This document shows, piece by piece, positions 5,429-37,522 of a stretch of DNA of 37,522 nucleotides (positions within the stretch are counted from its first letter, which is position 1; every line of letters begins with the position of its first letter). Origin of the DNA: a virus (lineage: Duplodnaviria > Heunggongvirae > Uroviricota > Caudoviricetes). Below the pieces are notes generated by a model. It was not told where the DNA came from. It searched no databases and saw only the letters and a program-made list of their open reading frames with translations. Made by a program: the position numbers and the translations under genes. The DNA lies in IMG/VR virus record IMGVR_UViG_3300029068_000003; one strand, 5' to 3'.

Positions 5429-5959
5429 TTAGCGAGTCAGAAACAACGAATCTTTATACTTTTGCTGTTGTTCATTTAAATACTTAGCTGTTTCATCGCT
5501 GGCAAATGGAAATATTACCGTATTTTTAGGCATGGTAATTTCTTTTTTGTCCAGCGTCAGAGTAAACATAGGAACATACTGAGCAGAGTAACGCACCGCA
5601 GAAACGAGCTCTAGTTTAGACTCTTCAATAACACTTAAATTATCTAGGCTAACTTTCTCTTCATCTTTTTTCTTTGACGCATTTAAAGTTTTTATTACTT
5701 TATTTAATTTCTCCTGAAAATCCTCCTTAAAGTTTTCAGGATTGCCGTCGACAACAAGAATCTGTTCACCCTGATTATCTGGAAAAATAATCTTTGCACT
5801 TATCAATTTATTTTCTTTATAAACATCACCAAGTTTTATGGCTCCTCCAGATAACTGAATAATATGTTCATCTTTAAAGGAGATGTTGCCAGAGATTATG
5901 AGAGATGAAAAAATAGCCGCTGCTCCAAGAATTACACTTGCTGTGATATAGCCTTTCAT
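5429..5959 (-). CDS. Moron-encoded secreted or membrane-anchored protein, function unknown
   Basis: 176 aa ORF, ATG start; N-terminal hydrophobic segment (ILGAAAIFSSLIISG); strongly AT-rich relative to flanking tail genes; own terminator; inserted between DNA circulation and tape measure genes. Confidence 0.55.
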   Translation of the reverse strand: MKGYITASVILGAAAIFSSLIISGNISFKDEHIIQLSGGAIKLGDVYKENKLISAKIIFPDNQGEQILVVDGNPENFKEDFQEKLNKVIKTLNASKKKDEEKVSLDNLSVIEESKLELVSAVRYSAQYVPMFTLTLDKKEITMPKNTVIFPFASDETAKYLNEQQQKYKDSLFLTR

Positions 5960-18313: not shown

Positions 18314-18463
18314 TGCATAATCCTCTTGGGTGGTTCGCGTGCGATACGTGGCATCCTTCTCAGAATCGAATCGCACTCCACTCCGGTTTTGCCATAAACG
18401 ATCTTTTATGCTTCGCTGGATGTAGTTGATAGTTGTTGAAACTCAATGAACAGGAGTTCACAA

Positions 18464-18799
18464 ATGAATAGTTATGAATGGGAATGGCTTTTAAACAAAG
18501 ATGACACCCTATGCTTTTTCCCCGTAGGCCATTCTGTAGAAGGTAATTACAAAATTCACTTTGAGTTGAGCGGTAGTTGTAACCTTAGAGTCTCAGATGC
18601 TGAATGGCATGGTAAACCTGTACTGCTGTTCGAATACTTCGATGAAGATGATGACCGCCCTGCAATAATCGAAATATTAGAAACAACCACTACAACTGTG
18701 GAGGCGATGATCGCACATCTGAATAGTATCGATAGTATTTACCATGAACCGATTTACAAAGCGGTTTACGAGTGGGCCGTAAAGTTTTTCTATCGATGA
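18464..18799 (+). CDS. Hypothetical acidic protein (cassette gene 1)
   Basis: AT-rich plus-strand ORF opposite to the flanking late genes; AGGAG 7 nt upstream of ATG 18464 (track ATG 18446 lacks an SD); acidic tract EYFDEDDDRP; no recognisable domain. Confidence 0.5.
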   Translation: MNSYEWEWLLNKDDTLCFFPVGHSVEGNYKIHFELSGSCNLRVSDAEWHGKPVLLFEYFDEDDDRPAIIEILETTTTTVEAMIAHLNSIDSIYHEPIYKAVYEWAVKFFYR

Positions 18800-18842: not shown

Positions 18843-19469
18843 ATGACATGCCAGCACAATACTGTCACTTACAACCGTTCGGATTACCTAGAGAAAAGTA
18901 TGATTCAGGATTTACTGATCGAAGCAATTAGTCACGATAGGATGCATAAAAAGTTAAATGAACTGAATTGCTACTTCTACAATCGCAAACATGAAACTCA
19001 AATACGTGATGAGTTAGTTGTTATTCTCAATCAAATCAGCACACTAACTGCTTTAAGTGAGCATCCAAAACTCGGTATCGGCGCTGTTGACATATCACTT
19101 TATAACCAGTCGATATTAACGTCTGAACATAATGGCAATGTTGCAACCATCGAGATCAAACACCATTACCCAAAGGATTTACTTTATCGGCAAGTTCAAG
19201 AAGACATCATTTTCGATATTTCAAGAGTAATAGTTTCACCAACTACACATTTTATCCATATAATCCAGCAAAGAACTAGGATTAATACTCCTTCTTTTGG
19301 CCAAGTGAAATTCCTTGAACGTGATGCAAGTGATATCAGCACTTATGTGCAATGCCTTGAAGAGCTAAGTTCCTTCCCCAGTATCTTTCATAAAAAAAGT
19401 ATATGTATTGAGGTACTTGGTGAAATTATGTCGACATATACCTTTAACGTATATTCATTTGACAACTGA
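18843..19469 (+). CDS. Hypothetical protein (cassette gene 2)
   Basis: 208 aa AT-rich ORF co-oriented with gene 1; alternative in-frame ATG at 18900; no recognisable domain. Confidence 0.45.
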   Translation: MTCQHNTVTYNRSDYLEKSMIQDLLIEAISHDRMHKKLNELNCYFYNRKHETQIRDELVVILNQISTLTALSEHPKLGIGAVDISLYNQSILTSEHNGNVATIEIKHHYPKDLLYRQVQEDIIFDISRVIVSPTTHFIHIIQQRTRINTPSFGQVKFLERDASDISTYVQCLEELSSFPSIFHKKSICIEVLGEIMSTYTFNVYSFDN

Positions 19470-20488: not shown

Positions 20489-20815
20489 TTACTCCTTAGA
20501 GCCACCAAACTTATTACCGATTACTCTCATTGCAGCCCCACGAATAGCATCGACACCGATCAACCCAACGCCACCACCAATGGCAACAGAAAGCGATTTA
20601 GGCCATCCGACATACTCAAGCGCGGATGCAAAGGTCAACGTCAGAGCACCACAGAGCAAAATCTCAAGCGTTTTTCGTTTCCAGCCCCCACCACCGCCAA
20701 AATAGGCAATGCGCAAACCAGCCATAACGATCGACATAATCACTGCGCCCAGCGGTGTGTCTCCACGCCACCAGCTCTGGACCAACTCCAGCCATGTATT
20801 TGGGTTATGAGGCAT
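20489..20815 (-). CDS. Holin (class I, lambda S-like topology)
   Basis: 108 aa ORF with hydrophobic segments and a charged C-terminus, immediately upstream of the endolysin. Confidence 0.6.
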   Translation of the reverse strand: MPHNPNTWLELVQSWWRGDTPLGAVIMSIVMAGLRIAYFGGGGGWKRKTLEILLCGALTLTFASALEYVGWPKSLSVAIGGGVGLIGVDAIRGAAMRVIGNKFGGSKE

Positions 20816-20952
20816 TTGTAGTTATCTCTCACCTCGCAATACAGGAGGTGCAAATTGAGGGAACATCATGTACCGCAAATCAGAAGCGGAAACGTCAAAG
20901 AAGCCGAGCCAATGGATAACTGCGGGATAGACCAGGCCCAACGAATCCCTAG

Positions 20953-20988
20953 GCCCAAAAACGACAAAACCCGCTCAATGGCGGGTTT
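20953..20988 (-). terminator. Intrinsic terminator upstream of holin (candidate tR'-like site for Q antitermination)
   Basis: Stem aaacccgc/gcgggttt (20967-20974 / 20981-20988) with loop tcaatg; T-rich tract follows on the minus strand (plus 20956-20969 is A-rich). Confidence 0.45.
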
Positions 20989-21022
20989 AAGCTGTGTGGC
21001 GAAGTAACCACTCTTAACACGA

Positions 21023-21063
21023 TATAATACTTTTTGCGTACGCGTTAACTTTTTCTGTAGTAT
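21023..21063 (+). promoter_or_regulatory. Candidate sigma70 promoter(s) for the 21146..22557 cassette
   Basis: Perfect TATAAT at 21023-21028; also TTGCGT (21034-21039), 18-nt spacer, TAGTAT (21058-21063); AAGGA Shine-Dalgarno before ATG 21146. Confidence 0.35.
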
Positions 21064-21145
21064 TTAGTGTAAGATTCTTCACAAGATAGATACTTTGGAG
21101 TACATGATGTAAAGTGCTGTATGCATAAACAGTACAAAGGATATC

Positions 21146-21667
21146 ATGATGAACAAATTAGCACGCTTATTATTAACAGCAAGCTCAATTGCACCTGTTT
21201 GCGCAACTCTATTTTTTATTGGATATGTAAAAGATACGGTTTGGCTGATGCAATATAGCTTATGCGTTGGCATAGCAAGTTGGTTATTAGCAATAGGCCT
21301 GATTCAATATGCTGAGAAACAACTTGAACCTCTGACAAAAAATATTAGTTCAGTTTCTCCCGCTAACAAAGAAGTAACTAATTATTTCTTAAGCTATTTA
21401 TTCCCTCTCCTAGGAACAGACTCTATTGCTGAAAATAAAGCATATGCGTTATTCTTTTATTTGTCATTGTTATTTTACATCAGCTTTTCCGAGAACTATA
21501 ACTTTAACCCAGTATTGTCACTTATCGGTTATAAATTTTACGAAGCTGAAGATGACACCGGCGTAGGTTTTGTATTGATTTCTAAATCAGTCATTACTGA
21601 TATTAAAGATATCAAATTTACAGTTATTCAATTAACAGACTACACATTTCTACATGTTAAAGGATAA
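21146..21667 (+). CDS. Small integral membrane protein with about 4 TM helices (KwaA-like architecture, unverified)
   Basis: 173 aa AT-rich ORF with hydrophobic segments (LLLTASSIAPVCATLFFIGYV; WLMQYSLCVGIASWLLAIGLIQYA; YALFFYLSLLFYISF); opposite strand to flanking Q and lysis genes. Confidence 0.55.
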   Translation: MMNKLARLLLTASSIAPVCATLFFIGYVKDTVWLMQYSLCVGIASWLLAIGLIQYAEKQLEPLTKNISSVSPANKEVTNYFLSYLFPLLGTDSIAENKAYALFFYLSLLFYISFSENYNFNPVLSLIGYKFYEAEDDTGVGFVLISKSVITDIKDIKFTVIQLTDYTFLHVKG

Positions 21668-21672
21668 TAACC

Positions 21673-22557
21673 ATGGCACTTTTTGCAGTAATAGATAATA
21701 CAATTGCAACGAGAATTGTTAGAGTCGAACTTGATGCAACAGCAAGTACTTCTGTTACGGCCATTTTCCAACAACAGCGTCAATATTTTGAAAGTCATCA
21801 TAACAATATGATACCATTCTATGCCGGTTATACACCAAAACATAGTGAGTGTTTTGAAATACAAAACTTTACTGATTCTGCACGCCTGATTGACGCAGTC
21901 AATAGGCCTACCGCCGTGCCTGTCTGGGATCCCAGCCAAATTGATATTGGTTATATTAAAGCATTATTTGTTGGTGTTGACGCGCCAGCAAACCCCAATA
22001 TTATTGCGCTACAAACCTTCAACAAAAAACAAATCTTAGATACCTCAAAATCATTCTTTGGAAAGCTTTTTGCAAGCAAAACTACCTTTAGTAAAGCTAA
22101 TAGCATCGGTTTTAATGTTGATGATAAACTAGTTGCAATAATTATCAATGATACAATACGATTTAAGAGTTTCTTTAATCTAAGAAGCATTTTTGACATG
22201 TCGTCCTATTTTTCTGCTGCTACTGACCAAGAACTTAATGCATTTAGTCAACTTAGTGTATTTTCTACTCCCCAAGGTTTTGATCTAAAATCCGTTGCAG
22301 ATACAGTGATAAGAAATAAAGTAACACTAATAAATCAGACTGGGATGCTAACACCCCAAAATATGTCAAAGTTTAAATCCGAAGCTGCTAAAGTCAATTT
22401 CCCCTTACAAACCATAATAGTTGGCGGTGTTGAGAAAATTGTCATGCCTTCATCAAAAAAAGAAATAAAAGCCCTTCTTGACTTTCTTGAGGAAGACATT
22501 TGGATTTCAGGGATAAGTGGAAGACGCTTTAAATCGAATTCAAAGCGCCCAATATAA
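21673..22557 (+). CDS. Soluble partner protein of the membrane protein (KwaB-like size, unverified)
   Basis: 294 aa AT-rich ORF starting 5 nt after the upstream stop, with an SD overlapping the upstream gene end (operon); no recognisable catalytic motif. Confidence 0.55.
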   Translation: MALFAVIDNTIATRIVRVELDATASTSVTAIFQQQRQYFESHHNNMIPFYAGYTPKHSECFEIQNFTDSARLIDAVNRPTAVPVWDPSQIDIGYIKALFVGVDAPANPNIIALQTFNKKQILDTSKSFFGKLFASKTTFSKANSIGFNVDDKLVAIIINDTIRFKSFFNLRSIFDMSSYFSAATDQELNAFSQLSVFSTPQGFDLKSVADTVIRNKVTLINQTGMLTPQNMSKFKSEAAKVNFPLQTIIVGGVEKIVMPSSKKEIKALLDFLEEDIWISGISGRRFKSNSKRPI

Positions 22558-22578
22558 CTAGAAGACAGTTAAGAATAG

Positions 22579-22926
22579 TTAACAGGCAAGAGTGCAAACA
22601 ATGCCTTCAATGAAACCAAGCGATGTTTGCAACTCTTTCCTGATAGTCCCATCCGAACACTTTCTCTTCTTAGCAATGGCTCGCAATGAAATCCCTACCA
22701 CAAAATGGGCTATAACTAATTCATACTCTTCTGGTTTGTACTTTCTTAATCTAGCTACGCACCCATCGATCATGAGCCCCTCATCATCATCACACTGAAT
22801 CCGGGACTTTTTGCCATGAGGTAAAAGCCCCTTGAAGCCAGCGGCTACCGGTTGCCAGTCCACTCCGCTATTGTCTGAAGCAGCCCAAGCTCCCCAACGA
22901 TCCATCACTTCATACATATCACGCAT
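22579..22926 (-). CDS. Late-gene antiterminator Q (QuuD-like family)
   Basis: Motifs ...DRWGAWAA...AAGFKGL...CDDD...CSDG... match the small Q family as recalled; ORF-track start is TTG at 22941; in-frame ATG at 22926 has GGAG upstream. Confidence 0.65.
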   Translation of the reverse strand: MRDMYEVMDRWGAWAASDNSGVDWQPVAAGFKGLLPHGKKSRIQCDDDEGLMIDGCVARLRKYKPEEYELVIAHFVVGISLRAIAKKRKCSDGTIRKELQTSLGFIEGIVCTLAC

Positions 22927-24769: not shown

Positions 24770-25159
24770 TCAGGCGGCTGCACCCGCCGTTTTCTCGTAC
24801 TTACTGATAGTGATCTCGACCTTCCCTCCCGGGATAACCGGTCCCCACTCCACCAGCATTCTTTTCACCTGACTGTCGTCTTCCCACACACCCGCGTGGG
24901 TCAGGGCGTCAAACAGCGCCTTGTTATAGTTGTCCAGATCGCGGATCCGGTTATCCGGAGGAAACAACACGATCTCCACTGAAGCAGGTGCCGACGTTGG
25001 TTTCGGCAGACGACGTAACTGCTCAACTATTGCTGCGCACGCCGCGCTCTGGAATTTTCGCCCCGCCGCGCTTATCAGACTCTTACCAGCAAACGCCCCT
25101 TTGTTGGGGTGTCGCCAGTACGTGTTCACGCTGGGCGGGAAAGGCAAGATCAGCTTCAT
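24770..25159 (-). CDS. rusA: Holliday junction resolvase RusA
   Basis: 129 aa; PPSVNTYWRH...RDLDNYNKALFDALTHAGVWEDDSQV aligns with E. coli RusA (PPSNNRYYRH...[26 protein letters not shown]). Confidence 0.8.
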   Translation of the reverse strand: MKLILPFPPSVNTYWRHPNKGAFAGKSLISAAGRKFQSAACAAIVEQLRRLPKPTSAPASVEIVLFPPDNRIRDLDNYNKALFDALTHAGVWEDDSQVKRMLVEWGPVIPGGKVEITISKYEKTAGAAA

Positions 25160-25482
25160 ACTTTCAGGCCTCTCTCATGTAACCAGTGGGCTGCACGCAG
25201 CCTGGCGTTTTCCTCACCGGCAAGCAGTGCGCGGATAATCCCGACCGCCTCGCTGTCGTCGTCCTTCACCGCGGTATGAAGCGTTATCCCCCGGGCCACG
25301 CCACGCTTTATCGTGATGACGCCTTTTTTCTCCAGTGCACGAAGATGCTCTACCGCTGCATTCACTGAACGGTATCCCAGCATGGTTGCCACCTCCTGAT
25401 TGGTTGGCGGAAAGCCACGCTCTTTCTGGTAAGAAATCAGCATATCCAGCACCTGCTGCTGGCATTGAGTTAACGTCGTCAT
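25156..25482 (-). CDS. LexA N-terminal DNA-binding-domain-like protein (wHTH), function unknown
   Basis: 108 aa; LTQCQQQVLDMLISYQKERGFPPTNQEVATMLGYRSVNAAVEHLRALEKKGVI resembles the LexA DNA-binding domain; ATGA overlap with the upstream gene. Confidence 0.45.
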   Translation of the reverse strand: MTTLTQCQQQVLDMLISYQKERGFPPTNQEVATMLGYRSVNAAVEHLRALEKKGVITIKRGVARGITLHTAVKDDDSEAVGIIRALLAGEENARLRAAHWLHERGLKV

Positions 25483-28795: not shown

Positions 28796-29422
28796 ATGGA
28801 AACGGTTGGTCAGCGTATAAAAGCTCTGAGAAGAGTTACCGGAACGTCCCAGAAAGAATTGGGTAAATTTTGTGGAGTAAGCGACGTTGCTGTGGGGTAC
28901 TGGGAGAAAGACATCAATACCCCTGGTGGGGAGGCACTTTCGAAATTAGCGAAGTTCTTCAATACGTCAATAGATTACATTCTTTATGGTGCTGAGTTTG
29001 AAGGCAAACTCGTCACAAACATGCGCAGAGTTCCTGTAATATCGTGGGTTCAGGCTGGGCAGTTTACTGAGTGCAGGGCAGCAGAAGTGTTTAGTGAAGT
29101 GGACAAGTGGGTAGATACATCATTAAAGATTGGTGATAACTCATTTGCATTAGAGGTTAAAGGTGACTCCATGACTAACCCTAATGGCCTCCCAACAATA
29201 CCAGAAGGCGCAACAGTGATTGTAGATCCAGATGCAGAACCTCGTCATGGAAAAATAGTCATCGCTCGACTTGATGGAACAAACGAAGCTACAGTAAAAA
29301 AATTAGTCATCGATGGCCCTCAAAAGTTTTTAGTGCCATTAAATCCTCGGTATCCCAACATCCCTATCAATGGTAATTGCCTTATCATTGGTGTAGTCAA
29401 AGGAGTTCAATACGAACTCTAA
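28796..29422 (+). CDS. CI-type repressor (XRE HTH + S24 LexA-like autopeptidase)
   Basis: 208 aa; N-terminal HTH (QKELGKFCGVSDVAVGYWEKD); C-terminal Ser/Lys dyad context (VKGDSM ... ATVKKLV). Confidence 0.8.
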   Translation: METVGQRIKALRRVTGTSQKELGKFCGVSDVAVGYWEKDINTPGGEALSKLAKFFNTSIDYILYGAEFEGKLVTNMRRVPVISWVQAGQFTECRAAEVFSEVDKWVDTSLKIGDNSFALEVKGDSMTNPNGLPTIPEGATVIVDPDAEPRHGKIVIARLDGTNEATVKKLVIDGPQKFLVPLNPRYPNIPINGNCLIIGVVKGVQYEL

Positions 29423-32722: not shown

Positions 32723-32968
32723 ATGCTTCAAATGCTGACACTTGAGGAATGGGCTGCGGAAAAATTTAGGAGTAACCCTCCAAGTGTGTCCACATTGCGT
32801 CGTTATGCTAAGCAGAATTTATTTTGTCCACCGGCAATGAAACAAGGTCGACTATGGCGAGTACGTGAGGACGCAGAGTTAGTTGGAGAATTAGTTACTC
32901 CTGTCATTAAGAAAAGTGATTCTATTATTCTACAAAGGATTTTAAGTAATGGCAGCCAGACCACGTAA
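32723..32968 (+). CDS. Excisionase (Xis)
   Basis: 81 aa ORF immediately upstream of and overlapping int; GAGGT Shine-Dalgarno. Confidence 0.6.
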   Translation: MLQMLTLEEWAAEKFRSNPPSVSTLRRYAKQNLFCPPAMKQGRLWRVREDAELVGELVTPVIKKSDSIILQRILSNGSQTT

Positions 32969-34076
32969 GAATAATGTTTCAGTCCCGAACTTGTATCCGC
33001 TCTATAGCAGAAAAGTAAATAAAGTTTATTGGCGATATAAGCATCCAGTGACCGGGAAGTTTCATTCTTTGGGCACAAACGAAGCTGAAGCCATTGCTAT
33101 TGCCACTGAGGCCAATACACGCCTAGCTGAGCAAAGAACCCGGCAGATTCTAGCTATCAGTGACAGGATCGCAACCAGCAAAGGAAAAGCAATCACAACG
33201 TCAACCTGGTTAGATCGCTATCAAGCAATCCAGGAAGACAGACTGAAAAGTGGCGATATAAAGCTCAACACTTATAAACAGAAAGCCAAACCAGTATCCT
33301 TGCTCAGGGAACGAGCAGGACTGAAGTTGATATCAGCCGTTGATGTCAGAGATATAGCACAATTACTTGATGAGTATATCTCTGCTGGACAGCCTAGAAT
33401 GGCCCAGGTCGTAAGGTCTGTATTGATCGATGTGTTTAAAGAAGCACAGCATTACGGCGAAGTTCCACCAGGGTATAACCCTGCTCTTGCAACGAAGCAA
33501 CCCAGAAGAAAAATTACCCGACAACGGTTAAGTCTTGAAGAATGGCAAAAAATTTTTGATATCGCAGATGCCAGTCATCGTTATATGGGGAATGCCATGC
33601 TGTTAGCACTGGTTACTGGCCAGAGGTTAGGTGATATCTCGCGTATGAAATTTAGTGATATTTGGGATGATCATCTCCATGTTATTCAGGAAAAGACCGG
33701 GAGCAAAATCGCAATCCCGCTTTCCCTTCGTCTCAACGCGATTAGCTGGAGTTTACGCGATGTAGTAGTCCGCTGCCGTGATTATGCAGTCAGTCCATAC
33801 TTAGTGCATTTTTTCCGTTCAACCTCACAGGCAAAACGTGGTGCACAGGTTAAATCCAATACATTGACGATGAATTTTAGTAAAGCACGGGATTTAGCAG
33901 GGATTGACTGGGGGGATGGCTCACCTGCCACATTCCATGAGCAAAGGTCTTTATCTGAACGCCTGTACAAAGAACAAGGGATAGATACTAGGAAGCTACT
34001 TGGGCATAAAACACAACAGCAAACTGATCGTTATGATGATGATCGTGGGAAAAACTGGATGAAGATAACATGTTAA
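32949..34076 (+). CDS. Tyrosine integrase (lambda Int family)
   Basis: 375 aa; C-terminal catalytic region with ...HEQRSLSERLYKEQGIDTRKLLGHKTQQQTDRYDD...; next to the xis-like gene and the attachment-site side of the prophage. Confidence 0.85.
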   Translation: MAARPRKNNVSVPNLYPLYSRKVNKVYWRYKHPVTGKFHSLGTNEAEAIAIATEANTRLAEQRTRQILAISDRIATSKGKAITTSTWLDRYQAIQEDRLKSGDIKLNTYKQKAKPVSLLRERAGLKLISAVDVRDIAQLLDEYISAGQPRMAQVVRSVLIDVFKEAQHYGEVPPGYNPALATKQPRRKITRQRLSLEEWQKIFDIADASHRYMGNAMLLALVTGQRLGDISRMKFSDIWDDHLHVIQEKTGSKIAIPLSLRLNAISWSLRDVVVRCRDYAVSPYLVHFFRSTSQAKRGAQVKSNTLTMNFSKARDLAGIDWGDGSPATFHEQRSLSERLYKEQGIDTRKLLGHKTQQQTDRYDDDRGKNWMKITC

Positions 34077-34394
34077 AATTGTGGGAATGAGCAAATATTA
34101 GTTACGCATGTAAAAAGCACACAATGTAATTAATAAGTCTACTTAGTATAATGATTGGATGTTTTTTTCATAATTGACATTAATTACCCCACAAATTGCA
34201 GAGTTAATGCCGAATCAATGTAGAGTATAAAAACAATATTTTTATAGATTTACTGTTTCATCAGTAAACCATTCCCTTGGTGAAAGCCTAGTATCGTACT
34301 TTTATCACATTTTATTTCATCGACTCTCGTAAATAATTTGTTATATGCCATAATGCCTCCTTAACAAAAAAACCACAACCTCATGGAGAGTTTC

Positions 34395-36722
34395 ATGGCA
34401 TTTAACCTTACCCGTATGACAGTTTATGCTCTTCTTTGCGCTTTAGAGGAAGACCTCCGTTCAATAGTTGTAAGTTACATCTTGAAGCCAGAAGATAAAG
34501 AAATAAAACTACCAAACGAACTTTTAGAAAAAGCTAAAAGAAGACTAGAAAAAGACCTCGGCACTGTGATGGATGGTATAGAATCAATTGATTTAATAGA
34601 ATATTTTGACCTTGGAGATACTTACCAAATCATAAATTCCAATGGAAAGGAAATTCCCGATCACATATATAAATTCATAAAATCCATTACCAAAGATTTG
34701 GACTCTCTCGTTCTAATAAGAAACAGAGTTATGCATATTCGACCATTAGACGTAGAAGATTACCCTACGCTTGCATCTATTTGCGAAAAGATAATAAAAT
34801 CCGAAACAAACTGTTGGTCTAACCTTACAGAAATATCCCAAAAAATAAATAACAACCCCAGCTTCTTGTTATCGATGGAAATTAAAAATTATGATGAAGA
34901 AAAGCAAAATCATAATTTACCCCTCCCTGATTTTGATGAAACAGGATTGATAGGAAGACAAAGTCATGTCCAAAAAGTAAAACAACTTTGCTATGGAGCG
35001 TTCCCTGTCATTTCCATAGTTGGAGAAGGTGGCGTAGGAAAAACTGCGCTGGCACTTAAAGTTGCTTATGAAATACTCGAGGATGAAGATAATCCTTTTG
35101 ATGCAATTGTTTGGGTTTCATCAAAAACCACACAAATAACTGTAAATGAAATAAAAGAAATCAAAGACGCTATATCCGACTCCATAGGGGTTATACAGGA
35201 AATATCAAATCAAATAATTGGAACGAGTGTAAAACAATCGAATTTTGAAGAGATAATCGAATATCTTACGACATTTAAAATCGCTCTTTTCATTGATAAT
35301 CTCGAGACAATCCTTGATGATAACATACGCGAATTTGTTGGTGCTTTACCTCAAGGAAGTAAAATAATAATAACATCAAGAATCGGATTGGGTGCATTTG
35401 AGTATCCAGTGAGATTGCAAGGTATCGATGAATCATATGCTTCACAATTAATGAGAATATTGGCAAAAATAAGAGGTGTTGACTCCTTAGAGAAAATAGA
35501 AGAAAAAATAATGAGGAGTTATGTCAATCGTATGTCGCGTAACCCAAGTTACATTAAGTGGTTCGTAAGTTCGGTTCAAACGGGATTGAGCCCTGAAGCA
35601 GTTCTTCAAAATTCAAATATGTTTCTTGATTTTTGCATGTCAAATGTTTATGAGTATTTATCTACAAATGCCAGGACACTTACTGCAGCCCTACAGTGTG
35701 CTCCCGGTTTAAAAGACGTACCTGAGCTATCTTATTTAACTGGATTTGACTCCCTTCAAACTCATCAATCCATTCAAGAATTGATGGCTACAAATATGTT
35801 GTCACAATCATCTAAAACGAAAGGTGCAAGTGTTAAAACCACTTACCAATTATCTGAATTAGCAAGGTTATATTTAGGCAAGAATCATAAACCGACCCAG
35901 ACTTATCAAAAAAGCATTCATGAAAAGCGGAACAAATTAAATGCACTTTTTGAAAAACAGCTGATGTCGAGAAGTGAAGATAAATATAATCCTCTGAATA
36001 TAAAATTCAGGGATAAATCTGATCGAGTTATTGTGAAAATGCTTAGAGACTCTCAGTCATTTATAAGAAATGGTCATCACGATAAAGCATTTGAATTACT
36101 CACTGAATCACACAAATTATCCCCAGACTATTTTGAAGTTGCTCGCGTGATGGCCTACTTACATCAACAGAATGGTGCAATTAGTGATGCCCGTGAGCAA
36201 TACGAATTGGCTATTGTATTATCACCTGACACACCTCAATTACACTACTGGTTCGCAAAATTCTTACTGCGTGAAGAGGATAATGTCGATGACGCTTTAA
36301 CTCAAATACAGCTAGCACATAATTTAGACCCCACATCTATTGAAGTATCTCTATCTTTGTCAAGAGTCTATATGTTCCAACATAGATTTGATGAGGCTGA
36401 AAATGTTCTTTCACTCATAGAATTAGATATTAAAAACTCTAGTGAACATAATATAAAAATATTTAAAGATACACACATTCAAATATCTTACCGGAGAGCT
36501 GATAATTTAGCTCAAAAAGGTGAGTATTCTGAAGCAATGTCATATCTAGAGAAAATGCTTGAGCAATTTGAGGAACTACCCGATTATTACAAAGATGTGC
36601 ATATTAGAAAAAAATTATCGAAATGCGAATTTCTATTGAAGACAATTTCTCGTAGTGCAGATCAATTAATCCTTCACAGAGCTGATAATTTTAGAGAATG
36701 GCTACAAAAAGAATGTGCTTAA
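34395..36722 (+). CDS. HEPN - P-loop NTPase (STAND/NB-ARC-like) - TPR-like repeat protein; candidate antiviral STAND (Avs-like) or abortive-infection effector
   Basis: N-terminal RNxxxH HEPN motif (LVLIRNRVMHIRP); Walker A GEGGVGKTALA; Walker B-like IALFIDNLE; helical repeat C-terminus; AT-rich; own terminator; start taken at ATG 34395 (GGAGAG upstream) rather than 34383. Confidence 0.65.
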   Translation: MAFNLTRMTVYALLCALEEDLRSIVVSYILKPEDKEIKLPNELLEKAKRRLEKDLGTVMDGIESIDLIEYFDLGDTYQIINSNGKEIPDHIYKFIKSITKDLDSLVLIRNRVMHIRPLDVEDYPTLASICEKIIKSETNCWSNLTEISQKINNNPSFLLSMEIKNYDEEKQNHNLPLPDFDETGLIGRQSHVQKVKQLCYGAFPVISIVGEGGVGKTALALKVAYEILEDEDNPFDAIVWVSSKTTQITVNEIKEIKDAISDSIGVIQEISNQIIGTSVKQSNFEEIIEYLTTFKIALFIDNLETILDDNIREFVGALPQGSKIIITSRIGLGAFEYPVRLQGIDESYASQLMRILAKIRGVDSLEKIEEKIMRSYVNRMSRNPSYIKWFVSSVQTGLSPEAVLQNSNMFLDFCMSNVYEYLSTNARTLTAALQCAPGLKDVPELSYLTGFDSLQTHQSIQELMATNMLSQSSKTKGASVKTTYQLSELARLYLGKNHKPTQTYQKSIHEKRNKLNALFEKQLMSRSEDKYNPLNIKFRDKSDRVIVKMLRDSQSFIRNGHHDKAFELLTESHKLSPDYFEVARVMAYLHQQNGAISDAREQYELAIVLSPDTPQLHYWFAKFLLREEDNVDDALTQIQLAHNLDPTSIEVSLSLSRVYMFQHRFDEAENVLSLIELDIKNSSEHNIKIFKDTHIQISYRRADNLAQKGEYSEAMSYLEKMLEQFEELPDYYKDVHIRKKLSKCEFLLKTISRSADQLILHRADNFREWLQKECA

Positions 36723-37128: not shown

Positions 37129-37522
37129 TTACATGTTCTTTATGATCGCGTCACCAAACTCGCTACATTTCAGCAGCTTAGCGCCTTCCATCAGACGTTC
37201 GAAGTCATAGGTTACGGTCTTGGCATTGATCGCGCCTTCCATACCTTTAACAATCAGGTCTGCGGCTTCAGTCCAGCCCATATGGCGTAACATCATCTCA
37301 GCGGAGAGAATAATAGAGCCAGGGTTTACTTTGTCCTGACCGGCGTATTTCGGCGCAGTACCGTGGGTGGCTTCAAACAGGGCGCATTCGTCACCGATGT
37401 TTGCTCCAGGGGCGATACCGATACCGCCAACCTGCGCTGCCAGAGCGTCAGAAATGTAGTCACCGTTCAGGTTCATACAGGCGATAACATCATATTCAGC
37501 CGGACGCAGCAGGATCTGTTGC
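37129..37522 (-). CDS. icd: Isocitrate dehydrogenase, C-terminal portion (partial; continues beyond window end)
   Basis: Translation ...[92 protein letters not shown] matches the E. coli Icd C-terminus as recalled; frame stays open to the window edge. Confidence 0.85.

What the first reader, a model, noticed from the sequence alone, without database searches (positions are those of the whole stretch)
21146..22557. Two-gene cassette (4-TM membrane protein + 294 aa soluble protein) inserted in inverted orientation between Q and the lysis genes; Kiwa-like architecture
In lambdoid phages the Q-to-holin interval is a classic cargo site (for example Shiga toxin genes). Here it holds an AT-rich operon on the opposite strand with its own promoter-like elements: a 173 aa protein with about four TM helices followed 5 nt later by a 294 aa soluble protein. 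Sizes and topology resemble the Kiwa defence pair KwaA/KwaB, but I cannot verify DUF4868 homology from sequence alone; it could equally be a different or undescribed membrane-sensor plus effector system.
Basis: partly seen in the sequence, partly recalled or inferred. Interest (0 to 1): 0.75.

Follow-up and report, generated by a model that had tools for sequence, protein, structure and literature searches.

The report
Prophage-borne Kiwa defence operon, SOS box
The two inverted genes between the phage's Q gene and its lysis genes are a Kiwa anti-phage defence pair that public annotation already labels as such; the only apparently unreported feature is a conserved binding site for the DNA-damage repressor LexA just upstream of it.

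Summary
ORFs 21146-21667 (173 aa) and 21673-22557 (294 aa) are KwaA and KwaB of the Kiwa defence system. Both match PADLOC profiles over their full length (E 1.9e-83 and 2.3e-150). KwaB passes the Pfam KwaB/DUF4868 threshold. AlphaFold models of both proteins hit only solved KwaA and KwaB structures in the PDB.

RefSeq already annotates the identical cassette as Kiwa in 33 of 5,426 complete E. coli genomes, so the system itself is known. The carrier is an e14/phiP27-like lambdoid prophage integrated at icd.

Two points appear to be new, and both are descriptive:
- The cassette lies between the Q gene and what I infer to be the late promoter and terminator, not downstream of them as stx genes do. 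This Kiwa group recurs next to an antiterminator gene in prophages of at least six Enterobacterales genera.
- A canonical LexA (SOS) box, at 21115-21134 in the window, overlaps the likely kwaA promoter. It is conserved in 36 of 40 distinct lineages of this Kiwa group and in 9 of 12 loci of a sister group, whatever the genomic context. This predicts SOS-inducible Kiwa expression. I found no paper linking Kiwa with LexA.

Function and regulation are inferred from sequence and homology, not tested.

The parts
21146..21667 (+). kwaA: 173-aa membrane protein. Four predicted TM helices, with an intracellular loop strand and C-terminal strands that form a cytoplasmic beta-rich domain.
   Evidence: ORF. 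PADLOC KwaA PDLC00216, 1.9e-83, residues 1-172 of 173. AF2 model pLDDT 78. Foldseek top 7 PDB hits are all KwaA (9mrx_A, 9mrg, 9mrr), TM 0.56-0.69, next hit E 0.6. NCBIfam KwaA equivalog scores only 46 bits against a cutoff of 100.
21673..22557 (+). kwaB: 294-aa soluble basic protein with an N-terminal alpha/beta domain and a C-terminal DUF4868 domain. By homology, the DNA-binding effector.
   Evidence: ORF. PADLOC KwaB PDLC00225, 2.3e-150, full length. Pfam PF16162 KwaB, 31.7 bits, above the 26.3 cutoff. AF2 model pLDDT 80. Foldseek top 4 PDB hits are all KwaB (9mrx_D, 9mtn, 9nyu), probability 1.0, 11-13% identity, next hit E 0.66.
21115..21134 (.). LexA (SOS) box TGCTGTATGCATAAACAGTA. It ends 11 nt before the kwaA ATG and overlaps the end of the putative -10 and the likely transcription start.
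   Evidence: It is the only CTGT-N8-ACAG in the 37.5-kb window. It is the best of 23 CTG-N10-CAG sites: 4 mismatches to TACTG(TA)5CAGTA against 8 or more for the rest. It is the only upstream block conserved in all 10 loci of alignment A4. It is present in 36 of 40 distinct lineages and in 9 of 12 loci of a sister Kiwa group.
21087..21115 (+). Putative kwaA promoter: -35 TAGATA (21087-21092), 17-nt spacer, -10 TAAAGT (21110-21115).
   Evidence: Matches 8/12, below the scan threshold. In 30 of 33 relatives the best -10-like hexamer starts 5, 2 or 0 nt before the box. Inferred, not mapped.
21048..22612 (.). AT-rich cargo segment carrying the Kiwa promoter region, kwaA, kwaB and the last ~11 codons of Q.
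   Evidence: Similarity to the Kiwa-free phage vB_EcoS-569R4 stops at 21047 and resumes at 22613. GC is about 0.34. No flanking direct repeats.
20957..21047 (-). Inferred late promoter, short leader and intrinsic terminator (pR'-tR'-like). Hairpin at 20967-20988, followed by a U-tract.
   Evidence: Terminator call and RNA fold. A 40-nt core is identical in phiP27, PhiR49_2 and all E. coli Kiwa loci. The core lies directly after Q in the cargo-free phage PhiR49_2. The identification as pR'/tR' is an inference.
22579..22926 (-). Antiterminator Q (phage-21 family, PF06530), convergent with kwaB. Only 21 nt separate the two stop codons.
   Evidence: Pfam 1.5e-45. The exact 115-aa Q protein is next to Kiwa in all 10 places shown, from 29 contigs read.
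20489..20815 (-). Lambda-family holin, the first late gene downstream of the inferred pR'-tR'.
   Evidence: Pfam Phage_holin_3_1, 5.7e-25.

Best explanation
The cassette is a Kiwa anti-phage and anti-plasmid defence operon, kwaA then kwaB. It is carried as accessory cargo by an e14/phiP27-like lambdoid prophage integrated at icd.

By homology with the characterised Kiwa systems (PMC11785009), the mechanism would be as follows:
- KwaA tetramers in the inner membrane hold KwaB dimers.
- Membrane perturbation at a phage-attachment or conjugation site activates the complex.
- KwaB binds the incoming DNA through its DUF4868 domain.
- This stalls replication and late transcription without killing the cell.
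- Gam-type DNA mimics can inhibit the system.

The operon has its own weak sigma-70 promoter overlapped by a LexA operator. It is therefore most likely kept low by LexA and raised during the SOS response. It is inserted antisense between Q and the inferred late promoter, so neither Q-dependent late transcription nor its own transcription runs through the other unit.

Shown here: gene structure, family membership by profile and by fold, genomic placement, and conservation of the LexA box.

Inferred: defence activity, all mechanistic steps, LexA binding, and the identification of pR'.
For: **Family membership**
- PADLOC KwaA 1.9e-83 and KwaB 2.3e-150, both full length, with no other defence family matching.
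- Pfam KwaB scores above its gathering threshold.
- The AF2 KwaA model reproduces four TM helices plus a loop strand and C-terminal strands.
- Foldseek against the PDB returns only KwaA and KwaB chains as significant hits.
- The operon is tight, with a 5-nt gap and a Shine-Dalgarno sequence for each gene.
- The identical cassette is annotated as Kiwa in RefSeq in 33 of 5,426 complete E. coli genomes, always with the same Q and holin flanks.

**Placement**
- The same inverted placement next to an antiterminator gene occurs in Klebsiella, Enterobacter, Serratia, Proteus and an Erwinia prophage remnant. It holds in 28 of 37 distinct lineages sampled.

**LexA box**
- Unique in the window.
- Its position-by-position consensus equals TACTGTATATATATACAGTA, with CTGT and CAG invariant across 30 distinct 20-mers.
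- About 0.015 such sites are expected by chance per 30-nt target.
- It is kept in lambdoid, P4-satellite, P2-like, cI-adjacent and island contexts and in a sister Kiwa group.

**Mechanism**
- Taken from PMC11785009.
Against: - No experiment has been done on this allele.
- Identity to the solved proteins is only 18% (KwaA) and 11-13% (KwaB).
- TM-scores for KwaB are modest (0.41-0.53). Interface and DNA-contact residues could not be mapped.
- Sequence searches of PDB chains found nothing.
- KwaA is below the NCBIfam equivalog cutoff.
- The promoter matches only 8/12 and has not been mapped.
- The window's LexA box has 4 mismatches to the consensus.
- Published Kiwa systems protected cells from native promoters without deliberate SOS induction. 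Basal expression may therefore suffice, and LexA control may only modulate it.
- Some relatives carry disrupted copies: a split kwaB in L031, a 139-aa KwaA call in L005, and IS elements near the cassette in two genomes.
Confidence: 0.88

Rival explanations
1. The pair is a different or undescribed membrane-sensor plus effector system that resembles Kiwa only in size and topology.
For: Very low identity to the solved Kiwa proteins (11-19%). No hit in PDB sequence searches. NCBIfam KwaA below its cutoff and no NCBIfam hit for KwaB.
Against: Full-length matches to PADLOC KwaA and KwaB sub-models at E 1e-83 and 1e-150. Pfam KwaB above threshold. Homologues carry precomputed PF28043 KwaA and PF16162 KwaB. 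The only significant structural neighbours are KwaA and KwaB.
Confidence: 0.02
2. It is a superinfection-exclusion or lysis-accessory pair of the RexAB type, tied to the lysis module rather than acting as a general defence system.
For: It lies beside the lysis genes. It pairs a membrane protein with a soluble protein, like RexB and RexA. In Gilliamella and in a metagenome contig, the same Kiwa group sits directly after the cI-like repressor, the position of rexAB in lambda.
Against: Only Kiwa models match in PADLOC at E up to 1. The same pair occurs with no lysis genes nearby in P4 satellites, Salmonella and Leclercia islands and a Photorhabdus P2-like element. It is transcribed away from the lysis genes and lies outside the inferred late operon.
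Confidence: 0.03
3. The cassette is Kiwa, but the palindrome upstream is not a working LexA operator. Expression would then be constitutive, or governed by something else such as RpoS, H-NS or a phage regulator.
For: No binding data exist. The window's box has 4 mismatches. The promoter is weak and unmapped. The prophage encodes its own protein consisting only of a LexA DNA-binding domain, which could be the real ligand. Escape mutants in the literature point to RpoS inhibitors, not SOS.
Against: The box keeps every high-information LexA position across 30 sequence variants while its spacer drifts. It stays within 11-30 nt of the start codon in this group. It is present in contexts that lack the phage LexA-like gene. 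The background rate is about 0.015 per target.
Confidence: 0.25
4. It is a decaying, non-functional remnant carried passively by the prophage.
For: Disrupted copies exist in some relatives. IS elements lie in or beside the region in two genomes. The exact variant is rare: 33 of 5,426 E. coli genomes.
Against: Both ORFs are intact and identical in at least 16 complete genomes from unrelated sources. Orthologues are full-length across genera, with many invariant residues. The regulatory box is conserved.
Confidence: 0.05

Closest known systems
Kiwa of E. coli O55:H7 RM12579 (Doron 2018; structures 9MRX, 9MRG, 9MRR, 9MTN, 9NYU; Zhang, Todeschini et al., PMC11785009)
   Same: - Two-gene kwaA-kwaB operon.
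- KwaA has four TM helices plus a cytoplasmic beta domain built from ICL1 and the C-terminus.
- KwaB has an N-terminal alpha/beta domain plus DUF4868.
- Predicted folds align over the full length.
   Different: - Only 18% (KwaA) and 11-13% (KwaB) identity.
- Each protein is about 20 residues shorter (173 against about 196 aa, 294 against 315 aa).
- It belongs to different PADLOC sub-models (216/225) and is below the NCBIfam KwaA equivalog cutoff.
- The published interface and DNA-contact residue numbers do not map by position.
- Whether the O55:H7-type operon has a LexA box was not tested.
Kiwa in the P4-satellite defence hotspot (E. coli FORC_042, between psu and int; Rousset 2022, PMC9122126)
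   Same: - Same Kiwa group: KwaA 49% and KwaB 39% identical, sizes 171 and 297 aa.
- Same LexA box upstream, TACTGTTTTTATATACAGAT.
   Different: - The carrier is a P4-like satellite, not a lambdoid prophage.
- There is no Q or lysis context.
Kiwa next to Q in Klebsiella phage ST846-OXA48phi9.1 and in Klebsiella, Enterobacter, Serratia and Proteus prophages
   Same: - Inverted kwaA-kwaB lies between an antiterminator gene and the lysis genes.
- The LexA box is present.
   Different: - KwaB identity is 47-76%.
- In Proteus the antiterminator belongs to another family (DUF1133). A strong promoter plus terminator sits directly after it, so there Kiwa lies downstream of the late promoter.
Shiga-toxin and tRNA cargo between Q and S in Stx phages (for example phiP27)
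   Same: - Accessory genes sit in the Q-to-holin interval.
- The conserved leader and terminator core is the same.
   Different: - stx lies downstream of the leader and terminator, on the late strand, and depends on Q.
- Kiwa here lies upstream of that element, on the opposite strand, with its own LexA-linked promoter.
DNA-damage-responsive control of other defence systems (for example CapH/CapP control of CBASS; recalled from the literature, not checked here)
   Same: Expression of an immune operon is coupled to DNA damage.
   Different: Here the coupling would be direct, through the host LexA operator, with no dedicated regulator gene in the cassette.

Membership tests
Kiwa defence system | KwaA homologue detectable by family profile | tested here: met
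   PADLOC PDLC00216, 1.9e-83, positions 1-172 of 173. Homologues carry Pfam PF28043 KwaA. The NCBIfam equivalog NF041622 scores only 46 bits against a cutoff of 100, so this is a divergent subfamily.
Kiwa defence system | [quoted passage not shown] | tested here: met
   AF2 model: helices 2-28, 32-59, 76-96 and 98-114; strands 62-72, 130-136, 141-146, 157-162 and 167-170. Foldseek TM 0.56-0.69 to solved KwaA chains. Simple hydropathy clearly supports only TM1 and TM2. No dedicated TM predictor was available.
Kiwa defence system | KwaB with a DUF4868 domain | tested here: met
   Pfam PF16162, 31.7 bits against a 26.3 cutoff, residues 108-281. PADLOC PDLC00225, 2.3e-150.
Kiwa defence system | KwaB two-domain fold like the solved KwaB | tested here: met
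   Foldseek top 4 hits are KwaB (9mrx_D, 9mtn_B/C, 9nyu_A), probability 1.00, E 6.5e-5 to 5.6e-4, 304-331 aligned columns, TM 0.41-0.53. The next hit has E 0.66. The model's pLDDT is 80, with a disordered 125-135 loop.
Kiwa defence system | kwaA immediately followed by kwaA-co-oriented kwaB in one operon | tested here: met
   5-nt gap, with the kwaB Shine-Dalgarno sequence inside the end of kwaA. The same order is found in all relatives.
Kiwa defence system | Conservation of KwaA-KwaB interface residues and KwaB DNA-contact residues | tested here: inconclusive
   The published residue numbers (R142, R167, K187, R233 and others) do not correspond by position. At 11-13% identity no reliable residue mapping could be made. 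No complex model was run.
Kiwa defence system | Protects against phages and conjugation; forms a membrane supercomplex | not testable with these tools
   Needs plaque and conjugation assays and biochemistry.
LexA (SOS) regulon | Operator matching CTGT-N8-ACAG / TACTG(TA)5CAGTA that overlaps the promoter or transcription start | tested here: met
   TGCTGTATGCATAAACAGTA at 21115-21134. It is the only strict site in the window and the best of 23 relaxed sites. It abuts the putative -10.
LexA (SOS) regulon | Operator conserved at orthologous loci | tested here: met
   Found in 34 of 37 distinct upstream sequences. Two of the three exceptions are a 1-nt deletion and a truncation. Photorhabdus and a metagenome lineage also have it, but the Pseudomonas Pf phage does not. 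It is present in 9 of 12 loci of the sister group.
LexA (SOS) regulon | LexA binding, and induction by DNA damage | not testable with these tools
   Needs EMSA or ChIP, and expression assays.
Q-dependent late operon cargo (stx-type moron) | Cargo lies downstream of pR'-tR' on the late strand | tested here: not met
   The cassette is on the opposite strand. The conserved leader and terminator lies between kwaA and the holin, and only 21 nt separate Q from kwaB. The identification of pR' itself is inferred.
RexAB-type exclusion | Homology to RexA and RexB | tested here: not met
   At E up to 1, PADLOC returns only KwaA and KwaB models. That PADLOC holds RexAB models is from memory.

The most novel reading that the evidence does not exclude
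Kiwa operons of this large group belong to the LexA regulon. They would be held low in unstressed cells and switched up by SOS signals such as DNA damage, incoming conjugative ssDNA, or waves of prophage induction in the population.

In this prophage the circuit may have a second layer. The early operon encodes a 108-aa protein that is only a LexA DNA-binding domain, without the self-cleaving peptidase domain (25156-25482). It could re-repress the kwaA promoter once the prophage itself enters lytic growth. The antisense placement between Q and the late promoter would keep Kiwa out of late transcription. Together these features would spare the phage's own replication from its cargo.

I put SOS control alone at roughly 0.7. 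The probability given here is for the full two-layer circuit.
Probability: 0.2. Interest if true: 0.6.

Novelty: already known. Interest (0 to 1): 0.35.

Why it matters
As a gene call it adds nothing. PADLOC and RefSeq already recognise this cassette as Kiwa, and Kiwa's structure and mechanism are published.

Its value lies in three smaller points:
- The first-stage reader can recognise a defence system correctly from architecture alone.
- This Kiwa group is a habitual resident of the antiterminator-to-lysis junction of lambdoid prophages across Enterobacterales. In E. coli it sits in a slot between Q and the late promoter that holds other cargo in related phages.
- A conserved LexA operator gives a simple, testable prediction that Kiwa is SOS-inducible. 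If true, it would link a membrane-triggered, DNA-binding defence to the DNA-damage response. It would also matter for how Kiwa is assayed, because expression from native promoters would depend on recA and lexA status.

Tried and rejected
- **PDB sequence searches** with either protein or with profiles of 59-61 homologues found no Kiwa chain. Only fold comparison linked the models to solved Kiwa.
- **NCBIfam** gave no KwaB hit and a sub-threshold KwaA hit.
- **Rfam and tRNA scans** of the window were empty.
- **Transposon-like boundaries.** No direct repeats flank the cassette.
- **Promoter scan.** No site of 9/12 or better lies upstream of kwaA.
- **Published residues.** Looking up the published KwaB and KwaA residue numbers in these proteins failed because the numbering is not transferable.
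- **Link to cloned systems.** I could not establish whether any experimentally cloned Kiwa (ECOR8, ECOR12, ECOR49, D9, Ralstonia) belongs to this group. The paper's supplements are not held.
- **O55:H7-type (about 196-aa KwaA) Kiwa.** I tried to reach it to test for a LexA box. The profile word search returned only this group among the 120 of 153 hits it listed. The alignment of distant representatives was too diverse to scan with. Only a sister group (PADLOC 221/222) was reached.
- **Genome-collection scan** gave only 4 loci.
- **Phage-21 Q-binding repeat** TGAGCA (PMC6606751) has no evident counterpart in the inferred promoter. The pR' assignment therefore rests on position and conservation only.
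- **Literature searches** for Kiwa with antitermination, LexA or SOS found nothing relevant.
Full report
**Observation**

The window holds two co-oriented ORFs at 21146-21667 (173 aa) and 21673-22557 (294 aa) on the + strand, 5 nt apart. They are flanked on the - strand by:
- a phage-21-family antiterminator Q (22579-22926; Pfam PF06530, 1.5e-45) preceded by a DUF968 gene;
- a lambda-family holin (20489-20815), a GH24 endolysin and Rz/Rz1.

The segment is AT-rich: GC 0.33 and 0.36 against 0.50-0.53 in the flanks. Both genes have AAGGA ribosome-binding sites. The description is accurate.

**Identity**

- PADLOC profiles match both proteins end to end: KwaA PDLC00216 at 1.9e-83 and KwaB PDLC00225 at 2.3e-150. 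No other defence family matches.
- KwaB passes the curated Pfam KwaB/DUF4868 threshold, 31.7 bits against 26.3.
- KwaA reaches only 46 bits against the NCBIfam KwaA equivalog cutoff of 100.
- Neither protein, nor a profile of its homologues, finds any PDB chain by sequence. This is therefore a divergent branch of the family.

I built alignments of 61 KwaB and 59 KwaA homologues and predicted both structures.
- The KwaA model (pLDDT 78) has four long helices, a strand in the loop between helices 2 and 3, and four C-terminal strands. This is the topology reported for KwaA in PMC11785009.
- For KwaA, Foldseek against the PDB gives seven significant hits. All are KwaA chains of 9MRX, 9MRG and 9MRR, with TM 0.56-0.69 and 18% identity. 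The next hit has E 0.6.
- For KwaB (pLDDT 80), Foldseek gives four significant hits. All are KwaB (9MRX_D, 9MTN, 9NYU), with probability 1.0, 11-13% identity and TM 0.41-0.53. The next hit has E 0.66.

**Already known**

- The identical cassette, with the same Q and holin flanks, is in 33 of 5,426 complete E. coli genomes.
- RefSeq labels the genes 'Kiwa anti-phage protein KwaB-like domain-containing protein' and, in recent annotations, 'KwaA family protein'.
- Both proteins also match PHROG families of unknown function.
- Kiwa is known to be common on prophages, plasmids and islands and in P4-satellite hotspots.

**Carrier**

The window is a mosaic lambdoid prophage.
- It has an e14-like immunity and early region: an S24-peptidase repressor at 28796-29422, a CII-like gene, Dam, PerC, RusA and KilA-N.
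- It has a P27-type terminase and a Mu-like contractile tail.
- Its lambda-type integrase (32949-34076) lies next to the 3' end of icd (37129-37476). It is therefore integrated at icd, like e14.

**Placement relative to late transcription**

Only 21 nt separate the stop codons of Q and kwaB. On the late strand, between kwaA and the holin, lies a strong intrinsic terminator (hairpin 20967-20988 plus a U-tract). It is preceded by a 40-nt core, TGTTAAGAGTGGTTACTTCGCCACACAGCTTAAACCCGCC.

That core is identical in several settings:
- all E. coli Kiwa loci;
- phage phiP27;
- phage PhiR49_2.

Phage vB_EcoS-569R4 has the same core with one substitution.

What lies between Q and this element differs from phage to phage:

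| Phage or locus | Content between Q and the element |
|---|---|
| PhiR49_2 | nothing; the element follows Q directly |
| phiP27 | a GIY-YIG nuclease gene (stx2e lies further downstream of the element) |
| vB_EcoS-569R4 | another inverted two-gene cassette with no PADLOC hit |
| This window | Kiwa |

I infer that the element is the Q-dependent late promoter, leader and terminator, and that Kiwa occupies a variable slot between Q and that promoter.

Two points qualify the inference:
- It rests on position and conservation. The -35 is poor, and the phage-21 Q-binding repeat has no obvious counterpart.
- In Proteus prophages a strong promoter plus terminator follows the antiterminator directly, so there Kiwa lies downstream of it.

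**Recurrence of the arrangement**

- The exact 115-aa Q protein is listed in more than 3,000 blocks of the collection. It is next to Kiwa in all 10 places shown, while the lysis and post-lysis genes vary.
- Inverted Kiwa next to an antiterminator gene is also seen in:
  - Klebsiella (KwaB 76% and 47% identical, the latter in a deposited phage genome);
  - Enterobacter;
  - Serratia;
  - an Erwinia remnant;
  - Proteus, where the antiterminator is of a non-homologous DUF1133 type.
- Across 94 loci, collapsing to 37 valid distinct upstream sequences, 28 have a Q homologue on the opposite strand within 25-274 bp of the kwaB stop. Most of these loci come from a viral-contig collection, so the fraction is biased.
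- Other contexts are:
  - a P4-satellite hotspot;
  - Salmonella and Leclercia islands;
  - the end of a Photorhabdus P2-like element;
  - the position right after the cI-like repressor in Gilliamella.

**LexA box**

I aligned the 160 nt upstream of kwaA from ten loci in eight genera. The only block conserved in all ten is CTG-N10-CAG with TA-rich flanks. In the window it is TGCTGTATGCATAAACAGTA at 21115-21134, ending 11 nt before the ATG.

- It is the only CTGT-N8-ACAG in 37.5 kb.
- It is by far the best of the 23 CTG-N10-CAG sites, with 4 mismatches to the LexA consensus against 8 or more for the others.
- Among 37 valid distinct upstream sequences, 34 have the box 11-27 nt before the start codon.
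- The three exceptions are a one-base deletion in the spacer, a truncation that keeps the right half, and a copy that keeps only the left half.
- Photorhabdus and a further metagenome lineage also have it. A Pseudomonas Pf-phage Kiwa does not.
- The 30 distinct 20-mers give, position by position, TACTGTATATA.A.ACAGTA, with C3, T4, G5, T6, C16, A17 and G18 invariant.
- The background rate of CTG-N10-CAG in the same loci predicts about 0.015 sites per 30-nt target.
- In 30 of 33 sequences the best -10-like hexamer starts 5, 2 or 0 nt before the box. In the window this gives TAGATA-17-TAAAGT.
- A sister Kiwa group (PADLOC KwaA 221, KwaB 222/225) has good boxes 52-111 nt upstream in 9 of 12 distinct loci.

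The simplest reading is that LexA represses these operons. The Kiwa paper does not mention LexA or SOS, and no paper in the searchable library links them. This is a prediction, not a demonstration.

**How it most likely works**

By homology with PMC11785009:
- KwaA tetramers and KwaB dimers form a membrane supercomplex.
- The complex senses membrane disturbance at phage-attachment or conjugation sites.
- KwaB then binds the entering DNA through DUF4868 and blocks replication and late transcription without killing the cell.
- Gam can inhibit KwaB.

Specific to this locus, and inferred:
- Expression comes from a weak promoter under LexA control.
- Convergent, antisense placement isolates the cassette from late transcription.
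- Because Kiwa is triggered from outside the cell, an induced resident prophage would not be expected to set it off.

**Verdict**

The finding is real and was correctly interpreted, but the system is already catalogued. What remains of interest is the conserved LexA operator and the recurrent Q-adjacent slot. Both are modest and testable.

Noticed in passing
window 25156-25482 (-): A 108-aa protein consisting only of a LexA DNA-binding domain (Pfam PF01726, 2.9e-19). It is 43% identical to E. coli LexA residues 1-86, including most of the recognition helix, and has no S24 peptidase domain. It lies in the early operon upstream of rusA, kilA-N, DUF968 and Q. The same gene occurs in the Kiwa-free phage vB_EcoS-569R4 and in Klebsiella Kiwa prophages. 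It might bind LexA boxes, including the one at kwaA, in a non-cleavable way during lytic growth.
   Followed up: partly
window 18446-18799 and 18843-19469 (+): A second inverted, AT-rich (GC 0.37-0.40) two-gene cassette just after Rz/Rz1 and before the HNH and terminase genes. The proteins match PHROG 14397 and 12494 (unknown function) and have no Pfam, NCBIfam or PADLOC hit. Relatives with the same Q-Kiwa module carry other genes at this spot (a 252-aa protein, DUF1398, DUF6236), so it is another variable cargo slot.
   Followed up: partly
window 34383-36722 (+): A 779-aa NB-ARC/STAND NTPase with C-terminal TPR repeats and GC 0.34. Its N-terminal 130 residues hit the PADLOC candidate family PDC-M34B (4.8e-10). 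It lies between the integrase and the icd attachment site, the slot where e14 carries lit. A related prophage in strain KSC1031 has DarT/DarG next to its integrase. It is a likely second defence gene of this prophage.
   Followed up: partly
window 5429-5959 (-): A 176-aa ORF in a sharp AT-rich island (GC 0.33) between the DNA-circularisation protein and the tape-measure gene. It matches PHROG 5485 (unknown function) and has no Pfam or PADLOC hit. It is absent from the otherwise similar tail module of strain KSC1031.
   Followed up: no
window 20863-20879 and 21094-21110: A 17-nt inverted repeat (15 of 17 complementary) brackets the inferred late promoter and terminator module. The right arm lies in the spacer of the putative kwaA promoter. 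It may be chance.
   Followed up: no
L002 2708-4103 (phage vB_EcoS-569R4); L004 2592-3821 (phiP27): The slot between Q and the conserved leader and terminator holds other cargo in related phages. In 569R4 and mEp460_4F5 it is an inverted pair of 286 and 182 aa with no PADLOC hit (PHROG 2802, unknown function). In phiP27 it is a GIY-YIG nuclease gene. The unknown pair is a candidate for an undescribed defence or exclusion function.
   Followed up: partly
L103/L104 3001-4396 (Gilliamella); L105/L106: Kiwa of the same group sits directly downstream of the cI-like S24 repressor gene, the rexAB position of lambda. In Gilliamella a GamL-family gene lies about 1 kb further on. This is notable because Gam is a reported Kiwa inhibitor.
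   Followed up: no
L031 5001-5866 (Serratia rubidaea NCTC12971); L005 (E. coli GCA_000692895.1): Some relatives carry apparently damaged copies. In the Serratia locus kwaB is split across two reading frames. In one E. coli assembly KwaA is called at 139 aa. In two E. coli genomes (ES8, ES10), IS150 and ISKox3 elements interrupt the Q-Kiwa-holin region.
   Followed up: no
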